Below are positions 10,037 through 23,165 of a DNA stretch of 64,000 nucleotides, piece after piece. This stretch comes from Candidatus Bathyarchaeia archaeon (GTDB lineage Archaea > Thermoproteota > Bathyarchaeia > 40CM-2-53-6): positions 65,543 through 129,542 of the forward strand of contig DASRSU010000025.1 in the NCBI GenBank assembly GCA_035656295.1, read 5' to 3'. The notes beneath the pieces were generated by a model. That model worked only from the letters and a program-made list of their open reading frames with translations. It was not told the origin of the DNA and did not search any database. Made by a program: the position numbers and the translations under genes. The first letter of the stretch is position 1; each line of letters opens with the position of its first letter.

Positions 10037-10142
10037 TCAAAGAGAATCTTGCGCGAACGTCTCTCTAAGGGACCAAAGTGGACTCGCCTGCGCTGGCAGA
10101 ATAAGGTGCACCTTTGAGTAACGGCACGTCAGGCTTCTTTCT

Positions 10143-10276
10143 TGGAGCCGGGGGTGGGAATTGAACCCACCTTAACCATCTTTTTCGTAGATGTTTACTA
10201 CGGGTTGCTACGAGGCATGTTCTGCAGCCCGTCGCCTGAACCAATCGGCCCTCGGTGGCAGGATGCCAACCCCGGC
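10143..10276 (-). tRNA. tRNA-Cys(GCA) with three introns (10251-10268, 10206-10221, 10171-10194)
   Basis: Removing 18, 16 and 24 nt gives a 76-nt cloverleaf: GCCGGGG/CCCCGGC acceptor, U73, encoded CCA, loop CT-GCA-GA, T arm GTGGG-TTCAATT-CCCAC. Each junction folds as a BHB or relaxed BHB. Confidence 0.9.
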
Positions 10277-10364
10277 CTCGTATGGCCCCCGGCAGAATCG
10301 CCGAAGCCGGCTGAACTGTATAAGCTTGTTGAGAAAGGATCAGAGTTCTGCGTCGTGGTTGAGA

Positions 10365-11279
10365 TTATTCGGACTTGTCTTTCGAAGACTCCGTAAGGTA
10401 TCCCTTCAACTGCGAGACCATGCTTGTGAATTCCATTGGGAAAATATACTTGGTTGATGGACTTGCACCGATTGCTTTCAACGCGTCCAAGTATTGCAGT
10501 GCCATCGTCTTGGCGTCTATACCTTTTGCAGCGCCGAATACGAGATTCAGCGCCTGCGCATAGCCCTCCGCGCGAAGTATTGCTGATTGCTTATCTCCTT
10601 CCGCTCTGAGGACAGTCGCATTCTTGTCTCCTTCGGCTACTAGCACCGTTGATTCCCGCTTGCCATCTGCCTCCGTGACCATGGCTCTACGGTTCCTCTC
10701 CGCGGTCATCTGCTTCACCATCGCCTCCTGTACATCCTTTGGAGGTCGGATTTCTCGGATCTCGACGTTGGTTACCTTGATGCCCCATCTCTCTGTTACC
10801 TCGTCAAGTCGTGTTCGGAGGAGGTTGTTGATCTGTTCCCTTTTGGCGAGAAGTTCGTCTAGTGGAATGTCTCCGACAACGGCTCTGAGGGTGGTCGTTG
10901 CGAGTCCGACTGAGGCGCCTGTAAAGTTCTGTACTTGGACGACGCTCTGGGAGGCGTCGACGACCTTGTAGTAGATCAGAAAGTCAATGTCGACGGGGGC
11001 ATTGTCCTTCGTGATGGCTGTCTGGTGCGGGACCTCCAGGTATCGTTCTCGGAGGTCCGTCTTGATGAGTCGATTGATGATTGGTATGATGAATATAATT
11101 CCAGGGCCCTTGGCGCCCATGAGACGTCCGAGACGGAACTGGACGACTCTCTCATACTCTCGAACTATCTTGATTGAGGATGCTAACAGACCAAGGATGA
11201 AAATTAGGGCAATGATGCCGAGAAATACTTCGACGATAAGAGTGGCAGCATCAATCTGTAACGCAAAGGATTCAAACAT
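10365..11279 (-). CDS. SPFH/stomatin (band 7) membrane protein
   Basis: N-terminal TM; VREYERVVQFRLG, TKDNAPVDID, WGIKVTNVEIREI, QMTAERNRRA. Confidence 0.95.
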   Translation of the reverse strand: MFESFALQIDAATLIVEVFLGIIALIFILGLLASSIKIVREYERVVQFRLGRLMGAKGPGIIFIIPIINRLIKTDLRERYLEVPHQTAITKDNAPVDIDFLIYYKVVDASQSVVQVQNFTGASVGLATTTLRAVVGDIPLDELLAKREQINNLLRTRLDEVTERWGIKVTNVEIREIRPPKDVQEAMVKQMTAERNRRAMVTEADGKRESTVLVAEGDKNATVLRAEGDKQSAILRAEGYAQALNLVFGAAKGIDAKTMALQYLDALKAIGASPSTKYIFPMEFTSMVSQLKGYLTESSKDKSE

Positions 11280-15393: not shown

Positions 15394-15528
15394 TGGCGGG
15401 ACCGGTGGGATTTGAACCCACGACCTTCGGGTCTCACTGCGGTCCATGGCTCCGGAGCCCGATGTCCTATCCTGGTTGTCCTCCCGCTACGGTGACCCGC
15501 ACGGTAGCGTGATCTAGACTACGGTCCC
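15394..15528 (-). tRNA. tRNA-Arg(CCG) with two introns (15476-15513 at 15/16; 15433-15451 at 37/38)
   Basis: Removing 38 and 19 nt gives a 78-nt cloverleaf: GGGACCG/CGGTCCC, A20, loop CT-CCG-GA, G73, CCA. The 38-nt intron is a long hairpin with central helix GTCT/GGAC. Confidence 0.9.
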
Positions 15529-23086: not shown

Positions 23087-23165
23087 GGGCCGGTAGTCGA
23101 GCCAGGACCAAGACGGCGGCCTGCGGAGCCGCAAATCGTGGGTTCGAATCCCACCCGGCCCGCCA
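23087..23165 (+). tRNA. tRNA-Arg(GCG), intronless
   Basis: GGGCCGG/CCGGCCC acceptor, loop CT-GCG-GA, GTGGG-TTCGAAT-CCCAC, G73, CCA; TTATAA box at about 23050. Confidence 0.95.

What the first reader, a model, noticed from the sequence alone, without database searches (positions are those of the whole stretch)
10143..10276. tRNA-Cys(GCA) with three introns, two at unusual positions (8/9 and 48/49)
Seen: the 8/9 intron (18 nt) has inner helix GGCA/TGCC, central helix CGGG/ACCG with one mismatch, and outer helix GGC/GCC. The 37/38 intron (16 nt) has central helix CTGC/GTAG. The 48/49 intron (24 nt) is a full BHB (CCCG/TGGG, TAGT/GTTA, CATCT/AGATG). Cutting after the second bulge base in each gives exactly 76 nt, with U73 and a compatible U15-A48 tertiary pair. 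Established: triple-intron tRNAs are rare and known mostly from Thermoproteales. I do not recall 8/9 or 48/49 among reported positions. Standard scanners may miss this gene, making the genome appear to lack tRNA-Cys.
Basis: partly seen in the sequence, partly recalled or inferred. Interest (0 to 1): 0.7.

Follow-up and report, generated by a model that had tools for sequence, protein, structure and literature searches.

The report
Three-intron tRNA-Cys gene with decoy leader
This is a real cysteine tRNA gene of a soil archaeon (Bathyarchaeia) cut into four pieces by three short introns, two at rarely or never reported places, and it carries an upstream copy of the tRNA's first seven bases that seems to be what allows an intron to sit so near the tRNA's 5' end.

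Summary
On the minus strand, 10276 to 10143 holds four exons (8, 29, 11, 28 nt) and three introns (18, 16, 24 nt). Joining the exons gives a 76-nt tRNA-Cys(GCA) with U73 and an encoded CCA. ARAGORN and Rfam both miss the unspliced gene.

Eighty-five distinct homologous genes were found in Bathyarchaeia genomes and soil, peat and sediment metagenomes:
- 68 have the same three introns at the same three places.
- Others lack one or two introns exactly at the predicted junctions.
- Exons are 94% identical; introns are about 70% identical and vary in length.
- The bulge-helix-bulge (BHB) helices of the 48/49 intron show compensatory changes.
- The 15:48 tertiary pair covaries across the third junction.

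It sits where the TATA box predicts the transcript to start. None of 120 tRNA-Cys loci without that intron has it. An unrelated tRNA-Arg(CCG) with a 9/10 intron has its own leader copy in 13/13 cases.

I infer that the copy pairs with the 3' acceptor strand, so the true 5' strand can enter the splicing motif and the short 5' exon stays tethered. No RNA data or enzyme test was available.

The parts
10318..10327 (-). Promoter: BRE/TATA-like AAGCTTATAC
   Evidence: In 85 homologous genes TTATA sits at -31..-27 from the leader copy (-30..-26 in the window), whereas its distance to G1 varies with the spacer. AA lies at -35/-34. Position -1 is T or C and +1 is G. That this is the promoter and that transcription starts there is inference.
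10287..10293 (-). Leader copy GCCGGGG, identical to tRNA nt 1-7; probably the first bases of the transcript
   Evidence: Present in 85/85 distinct genes with the 8/9 intron, although it was not part of any search pattern. Present in 0/120 tRNA-Cys loci with the same acceptor but no 8/9 intron. Its role is inferred from constrained folding.
10277..10286 (-). Leader spacer GCCATACGAG between the copy and G1
   Evidence: Length 4-15 nt and sequence variable among homologs.
10269..10276 (-). Exon 1, tRNA nt 1-8 (GCCGGGGU)
   Evidence: intronless homologs L001 and L004.
10251..10268 (-). Intron 1 at 8/9, 18 nt (UGGCAUCCUGCCACCGAG)
   Evidence: BHB with central helix C3-G, G4-C, G5-C, G6.A and bulges GU|U and AG|G. 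Length is 16-43 nt among homologs, and the inner helix varies in sequence and length.
10222..10250 (-). Exon 2, nt 9-37 (D arm, 5' anticodon stem, anticodon GCA, G37)
10206..10221 (-). Intron 2 at the canonical 37/38 place, 16 nt
   Evidence: Central helix 32-35 with GUAG; bulges AG|A and CA|A; no real inner helix. A 38/39 placement would give the same product.
10195..10205 (-). Exon 3, nt 38-48 (3' anticodon stem plus variable loop AGUAA)
   Evidence: 15:48 covariation.
10171..10194 (-). Intron 3 at 48/49, 24 nt, full hBHBh'
   Evidence: Outer helix 39-42/50-53, central helix 43-46 with GUUA, inner helix CAUCU/AGAUG. L127 lacks it precisely.
10143..10170 (-). Exon 4, nt 49-76 (T arm, 3' acceptor strand, U73, encoded CCA)

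Best explanation
The locus is the functional tRNA-Cys(GCA) gene of a soil Bathyarchaeia archaeon. It is transcribed from a TATA promoter as a precursor of about 150 nt.

[quoted passage not shown] The archaeal splicing endonuclease (EndA) would cut after the second base of each 3-nt bulge, and the RtcB ligase would join the exons. Because lineages of this superphylum (TACK) mostly have the broad-specificity alpha2-beta2 EndA type, that type is presumed here. RNase P would then remove the leader. CCA is already encoded. All of these enzymatic steps are inferred from what is known of other archaea.

The motifs cannot all exist at once:
- The 37/38 and 48/49 motifs both use nt 39-43.
- The 48/49 motif also uses the 5' strand of the T stem.
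- The 8/9 motif uses acceptor bases C3-G6 and D-stem bases G10-C11.
Splicing must therefore be stepwise, with refolding between steps.

The leader begins with an exact copy of the 5' acceptor strand. I propose that this copy pairs with the 3' acceptor strand CCCCGGC. That would free the true 5' strand to enter the 8/9 motif at almost no energetic cost. It would also keep the short 5' exon tethered to the tRNA body between cleavage and ligation. After ligation the true strand would displace the copy, and RNase P would cut at G1.

Shown: the gene anatomy, its conservation, the covariation, the intron presence/absence variants, and the strict association of the leader copy with acceptor-proximal introns. 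Inferred: transcription start, enzymes, order of steps and the pairing role of the leader copy.

My confidence is about 0.9 for the gene and its three splice sites and about 0.55 for the leader mechanism. The confidence field below refers to the gene and its splice sites.
For: Gene and product: (ARAGORN tRNA-Cys on the spliced sequence).

Homologs: searches give 85 distinct genes. Of these, 68 have three introns, 16 have the 8/9 intron only, and 1 has 8/9 plus 37/38.

Junction proof from natural variants: L001, L004, L127, L002, L120 and L332.

Functional constraint:
- Exons are 94% identical; introns are 70-73% identical, with lengths of 16-43, 15-21 and 16-27 nt.
- Exon variation is confined to loops, the 27:43 pair and the 15:48 pair.

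BHB covariation:
- pair 43:i-3 is U-A, U.G or C-G; the first inner pair is C-G in 57 genes and G-C in 11.
- 94% of cells paired, 0/500 shuffles reach this, slid registers give 27-46%.
- the 48/49 motif costs only 2.4-4.5 kcal/mol over the minimum free energy structure on average.

Leader copy:
- 85/85 against 0/120.
- A second, unrelated family, tRNA-Arg(CCG) with a 9/10 intron whose central helix is C4-G7, has its own copy GGGCGGG in 13/13 loci: 10 exact, 3 with 6 of 7 bases.
- About 51 other tRNAs in the same loci have none.
- Constrained folding: the 8/9 motif costs +16.7 kcal/mol without the leader and +0.3 with it, n=85.
- The TATA box is spaced from the copy, not from G1.

Literature: broad-specificity alpha2-beta2 EndA occurs mainly in the TACK superphylum, which includes Bathyarchaeota (PMC7714728). 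EndA and RtcB were found in all the archaeal genomes searched for them in one study, which included Bathyarchaeia (PMC12918454).
Against: - There is no RNA evidence. Contigs of the one probable RNA run (X15) carry the unspliced form, and no spliced joints were seen. These are assembler contigs, mostly from DNA, so this says little.
- The central helix of the 8/9 motif has an invariant G6.A mismatch. A competing U(i1)-A(i-6) pair is always possible. The local minimum free energy fold prefers a shifted register, G6G7U8/ACC.
- The outer helix of the 8/9 motif is only 2-3 bp.
- The acceptor sequence is invariant within each family. Pairing of the leader copy with the 3' strand is therefore supported only by two family-level cases and by thermodynamics, not by within-family covariation.
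- In some Arg genes the copy is part of a perfect 10-nt tandem duplication, so a duplication origin without function is conceivable.
- EndA, RtcB and RNase P of this organism were not examined.
- I could not check whether the genome holds another tRNA-Cys gene.
Confidence: 0.88

Rival explanations
1. The leader copy has no role in RNA folding. It is either a leftover of a tandem duplication at the 5' end of the gene or a promoter-proximal or initiator element that happens to match the acceptor strand.
For: Some tRNA-Arg(CCG) genes carry a perfect 10-nt tandem repeat, GGGCGGGTAT GGGCGGGTAT. The copy lies at the predicted transcription start. No within-family covariation is available.
Against: - The 7-mer is exact in 85/85 distinct Cys genes, while the spacer next to it varies in length (4-15 nt) and sequence. 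This holds even in an aigarchaeal-type lineage (L100, named Candidatus Terraquivivens).
- It is absent from 0/120 Cys loci with the same acceptor and no 8/9 intron.
- A different tRNA with a different acceptor carries its own matching copy.
- An initiator element would not need to track the acceptor sequence.
Confidence: 0.3
2. The first intron is cut in another register, for example 7/8 or 9/10. Alternatively the upstream copy is the real 5' exon and everything up to G9 is a single larger intron.
For: The GGGG run allows slipped pairings, and the minimum free energy fold of the local region uses G6G7U8/ACC. The transcript probably begins with GCCGGGG, as a leaderless tRNA would.
Against: - Only the 8/9 cut gives U8 and G9, as in the intronless homolog L001 (GCCGGGGTGGCCGA). 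L004 has A9.
- A shift of one base either way gives G8, or U9 instead of G9.
- The base after the upstream copy is G, A or T, so it cannot supply a conserved U8.
- The inner helix UGG.../...CCA directly follows the proximal copy only.
- BHB geometry (4 positions plus 2 bulge bases on each strand) fits 8/9 exactly.
Confidence: 0.08
3. The locus is a decaying tRNA pseudogene with three insertions, and the cell uses another tRNA-Cys gene.
For: Standard scanners do not call it. No RNA evidence exists. Only 64 kb of the genome is visible.
Against: - Exons are 94% conserved across 68 distinct three-intron genes, while introns drift.
- There are compensatory changes in the tRNA stem pair 27:43, the tertiary pair 15:48 and the BHB helices.
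- A conserved promoter is present.
- No assembly name appears in both the intron-containing and the intronless lists as I read them. I did not check this computationally, and both lists were cut at 120 rows, so this is weak.
Confidence: 0.03

Closest known systems
Multi-intron tRNA genes of Thermoproteales (Pyrobaculum, Thermofilum, Caldivirga) with BHB introns at non-canonical positions (Sugahara 2007/2008; Chan 2011; reviews PMC4090602, PMC4033280)
   Same: Up to three short introns per gene. Each is defined by a bulge-helix-bulge or relaxed motif. One intron is canonical at 37/38 and the others are elsewhere. Neighbouring motifs overlap, so removal must be sequential (tRNAscan-SE 2.0 paper). 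The host belongs to the TACK group, where the broad-specificity EndA is the rule.
   Different: The host is a mesophilic soil Bathyarchaeia, not a hyperthermophilic crenarchaeon. The positions 8/9 and 48/49 are not among those listed in the texts I could read (3/4, 20/21, 22/23, 25/26, 29/30, 30/31, 45/46, 53/54, 56/57, 59/60 'etc.'). A leader copy of the acceptor strand accompanies the 8/9 intron, and I found no description of such a copy in the library.
Variable-loop intron of Thermofilum pendens (Kjems et al. 1989, cited in PMC3978253) and V-arm introns of Caldiarchaeum subterraneum (PMC3293823)
   Same: The intron lies in or at the edge of the variable region and is excised through a BHB-type motif.
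   Different: Here the cut is at the loop/T-stem boundary (48/49). The outer helix is built from the 3' anticodon-stem strand and the 5' T-stem strand. I could not compare sequences, because those papers' data are not held.
Split tRNA genes of Nanoarchaeum equitans and Caldivirga maquilingensis
   Same: Extra complementary RNA outside the mature tRNA holds the exons together, so that a BHB can form and the pieces can be ligated.
   Different: In split genes the two halves are separate transcripts joined by leader-trailer complementarity. Here everything is one transcript. The extra element is a duplicate of an exon strand that, on my model, pairs with the 3' acceptor strand.

Membership tests
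Archaeal BHB (EndA/RtcB-spliced) tRNA introns | Two 3-nt bulges separated by a 4-bp helix at the exon-intron boundaries, with the cut after the second bulge base | tested here: met
   48/49: strict hBHBh', 100% pairing of the central and outer helices in 68 genes, with covariation. 37/38: outer and central helices present, little inner helix. 8/9: the motif is present but relaxed, with an invariant G6.A in the central helix and an outer helix of 2-3 bp.
Archaeal BHB (EndA/RtcB-spliced) tRNA introns | Removing the introns yields a canonical cloverleaf tRNA | tested here: met
   ARAGORN calls tRNA-Cys(gca), 76 nt, on the spliced sequence. Natural genes lacking each intron have the same junction sequence.
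Archaeal BHB (EndA/RtcB-spliced) tRNA introns | The host encodes EndA, of a type that accepts relaxed motifs, and RtcB | not tested
   No such gene was looked for; only 8 ORFs near the locus were scanned against Pfam. Literature only: alpha2-beta2 EndA is mainly found in TACK, which includes Bathyarchaeota, and EndA and RtcB were found in the archaeal genomes searched in one study that included Bathyarchaeia.
Archaeal BHB (EndA/RtcB-spliced) tRNA introns | Spliced RNA observed with the predicted junctions | tested here: inconclusive
   The runs that hold the locus are kept only as assembler contigs, almost all from DNA. No joints were seen, and one probable RNA contig is unspliced.
tRNA-Cys | Anticodon GCA, discriminator U73, G37, 15:48 tertiary pair | tested here: met
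   U73 is present in all 85 genes. The 15:48 pair covaries as U:A, A:U and G:C.
Split or permuted tRNA genes | Exons at separate loci or in permuted order | tested here: not met
   All four exons are collinear within 134 nt.
Group I / group II self-splicing introns | A ribozyme core hundreds of nucleotides long | tested here: not met
   The introns are 16-24 nt, and there is no Rfam hit.

The most novel reading that the evidence does not exclude
A copy of the tRNA's 5' acceptor strand, placed at the very start of the precursor, is a general and so far undescribed device. It acts as a decoy and tether strand that pairs with the 3' acceptor strand. This would let BHB introns be processed at positions 8/9 and 9/10, whose motif must borrow the acceptor's 5' strand. 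It would impose the order EndA and ligase first, RNase P afterwards. It evolved at least twice, in tRNA-Cys and tRNA-Arg(CCG), and occurs in Bathyarchaeia and an aigarchaeal-type lineage.
Probability: 0.5. Interest if true: 0.75.

Novelty: new variant of a known kind. Interest (0 to 1): 0.62.

Why it matters
**Annotation.** This gene family is invisible to ARAGORN and to the Rfam tRNA model. Bathyarchaeia genomes from soil, peat and sediment may therefore be scored as lacking tRNA-Cys. In this window tRNA-Arg(CCG) is missed in the same way. That distorts completeness and decoding estimates.

**Biology.**
- Heavy tRNA fragmentation by BHB introns extends from hyperthermophilic Thermoproteales to abundant mesophilic soil archaea.
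- Natural presence/absence variants for each intron are available for studying intron gain and loss.
- The leader copy offers a concrete, testable answer to how an endonuclease motif can be built from a strand that is normally locked in the acceptor stem. It also suggests how an 8-nt exon avoids being lost after cleavage.
- If confirmed, it would be a new rule for finding hidden tRNA genes and a constraint on the order of tRNA processing steps.

Tried and rejected
- ARAGORN with and without intron mode on the genomic sequence gave no gene, or a false tRNA-Leu with a 32-nt intron.
- Rfam at the gathering and E-value thresholds found only the T arm.
- The look-up of encoding contigs with the neighbouring SPFH protein found nothing on record, so the source contig was not identified.
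- Laying contigs of 7 runs on the locus, including the only probable RNA run, gave sequence variants but no spliced joints.
- My first control pattern was mis-specified (six Ns instead of five between GGCG and CTGCAG) and found nothing. It was corrected.
- My first parser took G.U-tolerant false anticodon stems inside introns. This was fixed.
- Literature searches for published lists containing 8/9 or 48/49, for Bathyarchaeia tRNA introns and for leader copies found nothing specific. Sugahara 2007 is not held, and figures are not held.
- Rejected readings: a larger single intron starting after the upstream copy (no U8); a group I or II intron (too short); a split or permuted gene (collinear exons); protein-coding ORFs 10142-10396 and 10191-10457 on the plus strand (they overlap the tRNA and are mechanical ORFs only).

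Full report
**What is at the coordinates.**
The feature lies on the minus strand. Read from 10276 down to 10143, it is 134 nt. ARAGORN calls this 76-nt product tRNA-Cys(gca). It has a perfect 7-bp acceptor stem, U73 and an encoded CCA.

On the genomic sequence ARAGORN finds nothing, and in intron mode it returns a false tRNA-Leu. Rfam's tRNA model scores only the T arm.

The neighbours are ordinary archaeal genes:
- an SPFH/NfeD pair and a LonB-type protease upstream on the same strand;
- a TMEM175-like channel, convergent;
- a TATA-binding protein gene a few kb away.

The plus-strand ORFs that overlap the tRNA are mechanical only.

**Where it comes from.**
One soil metagenome run holds 98% of the sampled words of the locus, and many other soil runs hold related variants. 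The exact 3' exon occurs in three Bathyarchaeia genomes and one Asgard genome. The closest genome hit is a soil Bathyarchaeota assembly, BA_2 (L077), which has the same 3' flank. The window's own species is not among the representative genomes searched.

**Comparative evidence.**
Two pattern scans anchored on exon 1, the intron ends and the start of exon 2 returned 123 loci with 85 distinct genes:
- 68 have all three introns at the same three places;
- 16 have only the 8/9 intron;
- 1 (L127) has 8/9 and 37/38 but reads AGTAA|GTGGG without interruption, which is exactly the predicted 48/49 junction.

A control scan for tRNA-Cys genes with the same acceptor but no 8/9 intron gave 120 loci. Among them is L332, which has the 37/38 and 48/49 introns but no 8/9 intron. 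Intronless Bathyarchaeia genes (L001, L004) read GCCGGGGT[G/A]GCCGA across the first junction. Each intron is therefore individually present or absent in nature, at the exact junction the bulge rule predicts.

In the 68 three-intron genes:
- exons are 94% identical pairwise;
- introns are 70-73% identical and vary in length (16-43, 15-21 and 16-27 nt);
- the only variable exon columns are loop positions, the stem pair 27:43, position 65 and the pair 15:48.

The 15:48 tertiary pair covaries as U:A (50), A:U (24) and G:C (3), with 8 exceptions. This fixes the base just before the third intron as nt 48 of a working tRNA.

**The splicing motifs.**
- **48/49.** The outer helix (39-42 with 50-53) and the central helix (43-46 with the four intron bases that precede the last two) pair in 100% of 68 genes. 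Pair 43:i-3 appears as U-A, U.G and C-G. The first inner pair flips between C-G (57) and G-C (11). On a MAFFT alignment of 50 distinct copies, 94% of cells pair against 27-46% in slid registers. Four pairs change on both sides. No shuffle out of 500 reaches the observed pairing or covariation.
- **37/38.** The anticodon stem is the outer helix. Bases 32-35 pair with GUAG, GCAG or GCGG, and there is little inner helix. A 38/39 placement would give the same product.
- **8/9.** The central helix is C3-G, G4-C, G5-C plus an invariant G6.A. The bulges are GU|U and A(A/G)|G. The outer helix is only G1-C11, C2-G10 and sometimes N(-1)-C12. The inner helix runs from 2 bp to a long irregular stem. This is a relaxed motif. 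Part of its invariance is imposed by my patterns. In the freer first scan, all 15 real hits nevertheless had CCACCGAR.

The local minimum free energy fold prefers a slipped register. Only the 8/9 cut gives U8-G9, as in the intronless homolog L001.

The motifs overlap. Motifs 2 and 3 share nt 39-43, motif 3 uses the T stem, and motif 1 uses the acceptor and D stems. Removal must therefore be sequential with refolding, as already described for Thermoproteales genes. Forcing the 48/49 motif costs on average only 2.4-4.5 kcal/mol over the minimum free energy structure.

**The leader copy (a new observation).**
Every one of the 85 distinct genes has an exact GCCGGGG 4-15 nt upstream of G1 (window 10293-10287). 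The leader was in no search pattern. None of the 120 control loci has an exact copy within 30 nt upstream; two have a one-mismatch match.

A BRE/TATA-like AAGCTTATAC lies at a fixed distance from the copy, not from G1. TTATA is at -31..-27, position -1 is a pyrimidine and +1 is G. The copy is therefore probably the first seven bases of the transcript (inference).

I scanned 1.74 Mb of fetched archaeal loci for any tRNA whose 5' acceptor 7-mer occurs twice upstream of its T arm. Apart from one unrelated repeat 125 nt away in L265, this found only one further family. It is a Bathyarchaeia tRNA-Arg(CCG) with an intron at 9/10, whose central helix is C4-G7. A dedicated scan, which did not include the leader, brought that family to 13 loci with upstream sequence. 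All 13 carry their own copy 3 nt upstream: GGGCGGG in 10 and GGGCGGA in 3. About 51 other tRNAs in the same loci, with or without introns elsewhere, have none.

The 8/9 intron with its copy also occurs in L100, named Candidatus Terraquivivens, which I take to be an aigarchaeal-type lineage.

**How it most likely works.**
Constrained folding of all 85 precursors compares two states. Swapping the acceptor stem for the 8/9 motif costs +16.7 +/- 3.2 kcal/mol when there is no leader. It costs +0.3 +/- 3.4 kcal/mol when the leader copy pairs with the 3' acceptor strand.

My reading is that the copy is a decoy and tether. It occupies CCCCGGC, so that C3-G6 can form the central helix. It also keeps the leader plus 8-nt exon attached to the body after EndA has cut, until RtcB ligates. 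The true strand then displaces the copy and RNase P trims at G1.

- Shown here: the gene anatomy, its conservation and the association of the copy with these introns.
- Model results: the energy values.
- Inferred: the pairing itself, the transcription start, the enzymes and the order of steps.

Points against:
- there is no within-family covariation, because the acceptor is invariant;
- some Arg genes have a perfect 10-nt tandem repeat, which could mean recent duplication;
- there are no RNA data.

**RNA evidence.**
None is usable. The runs are stored as assembler contigs and nearly all are DNA. One probable RNA contig is unspliced, and no joints were seen.

**Comparison with what is known.**
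The gene works like the multi-intron tRNA genes of Thermoproteales and passes the sequence-level tests for BHB introns. The presence of EndA and RtcB, and splicing itself, were not tested.

Reviews list non-canonical positions 3/4, 20/21, 22/23, 25/26, 29/30, 30/31, 45/46, 53/54, 56/57 and 59/60, 'etc.'. They state that up to three introns occur, mostly in Pyrobaculum and Thermofilum. A variable-loop intron has been known since 1989, and V-arm introns occur in Caldiarchaeum.

I found no mention of 8/9, of 48/49, of Bathyarchaeia tRNA introns, or of a leader copy of the acceptor strand. The decisive figures and the Sugahara papers are not in the library, so novelty of the positions is probable but not established.

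**Verdict.**
The gene is a new lineage and position variant of a known kind of gene. The added leader-copy feature may be new and is directly testable.

Noticed in passing
window 15394-15528, minus strand: A second hidden tRNA. Removing a 38-nt insert after nt 15 gives part of the product; its BHB has central helix G10-U13 with an intronic GGAC, bulges AG|A and AA|C, and a long inner helix. Removing a further 19-nt insert in the anticodon loop gives a 78-nt tRNA-Arg(CCG) by ARAGORN. ARAGORN and Rfam miss the genomic form. The anticodon-loop insert has no canonical BHB in any register; 36/37 to 38/39 all give the same product. There is no leader copy here. So 2 of the 3 tRNA genes in the window are multi-intron.
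   Followed up: partly
L002 6960-7005 and L120, L195, L235, L240, L365-L372: Bathyarchaeia tRNA-Arg(CCG) genes with an intron at 9/10 (GGGCGGGTA|cagag...ctctcccgat|GCCTAGCC) and a leader copy of GGGCGGG 3 nt upstream. In L240, L366, L367 and L370 the copy is a perfect 10-nt tandem repeat, GGGCGGGTAT.
   Followed up: yes
L100 (Candidatus Terraquivivens ruidianensis), L103, L178: A 71-nt tRNA-Cys with an unusual T loop (TCGGGTGCAAATCCCGA) carries an 18-nt 8/9 intron plus the leader copy, with a spacer of only 4 nt. The feature therefore reaches beyond Bathyarchaeia.
   Followed up: partly
L173 (metagenome contig WNGL01011543.1): The first intron region is duplicated (tggcttgtccaccgaaGGCCCCGGGGTtggcttgtccaccgaa). 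This is either a real tandem duplication of part of exon 1 plus the intron, or an assembly artefact.
   Followed up: no
L258 (Thermofilaceae MAG) and several Desulfurococcales loci of the control scan: The tRNA-Cys of L258 has a variable region of 27 nt between the anticodon stem and the T stem (about 21 nt longer than usual). This may be a variable-loop intron of the kind known from Thermofilum. Most Desulfurococcales and Sulfolobales tRNA-Cys genes in the control have a canonical intron of 7-40 nt.
   Followed up: no
window 10293-10374: One soil metagenome contig (run X2) skips 80 nt just upstream of the leader copy. The skipped stretch holds the predicted promoter and the 3' end of the SPFH gene. 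Other strains diverge completely upstream of 10294 but keep ...CGTATAAG, which is the TATA box on the other strand.
   Followed up: no
window 23087-23165, plus strand: An intronless tRNA-Arg(GCG), the only tRNA that the standard tools find in the window.
   Followed up: no
window 10143-10146 and homologs: The 3' CCA is encoded in the gene in 78 of 85 distinct tRNA-Cys genes. The window's tRNA-Arg(CCG) also ends in an encoded CCA.
   Followed up: no
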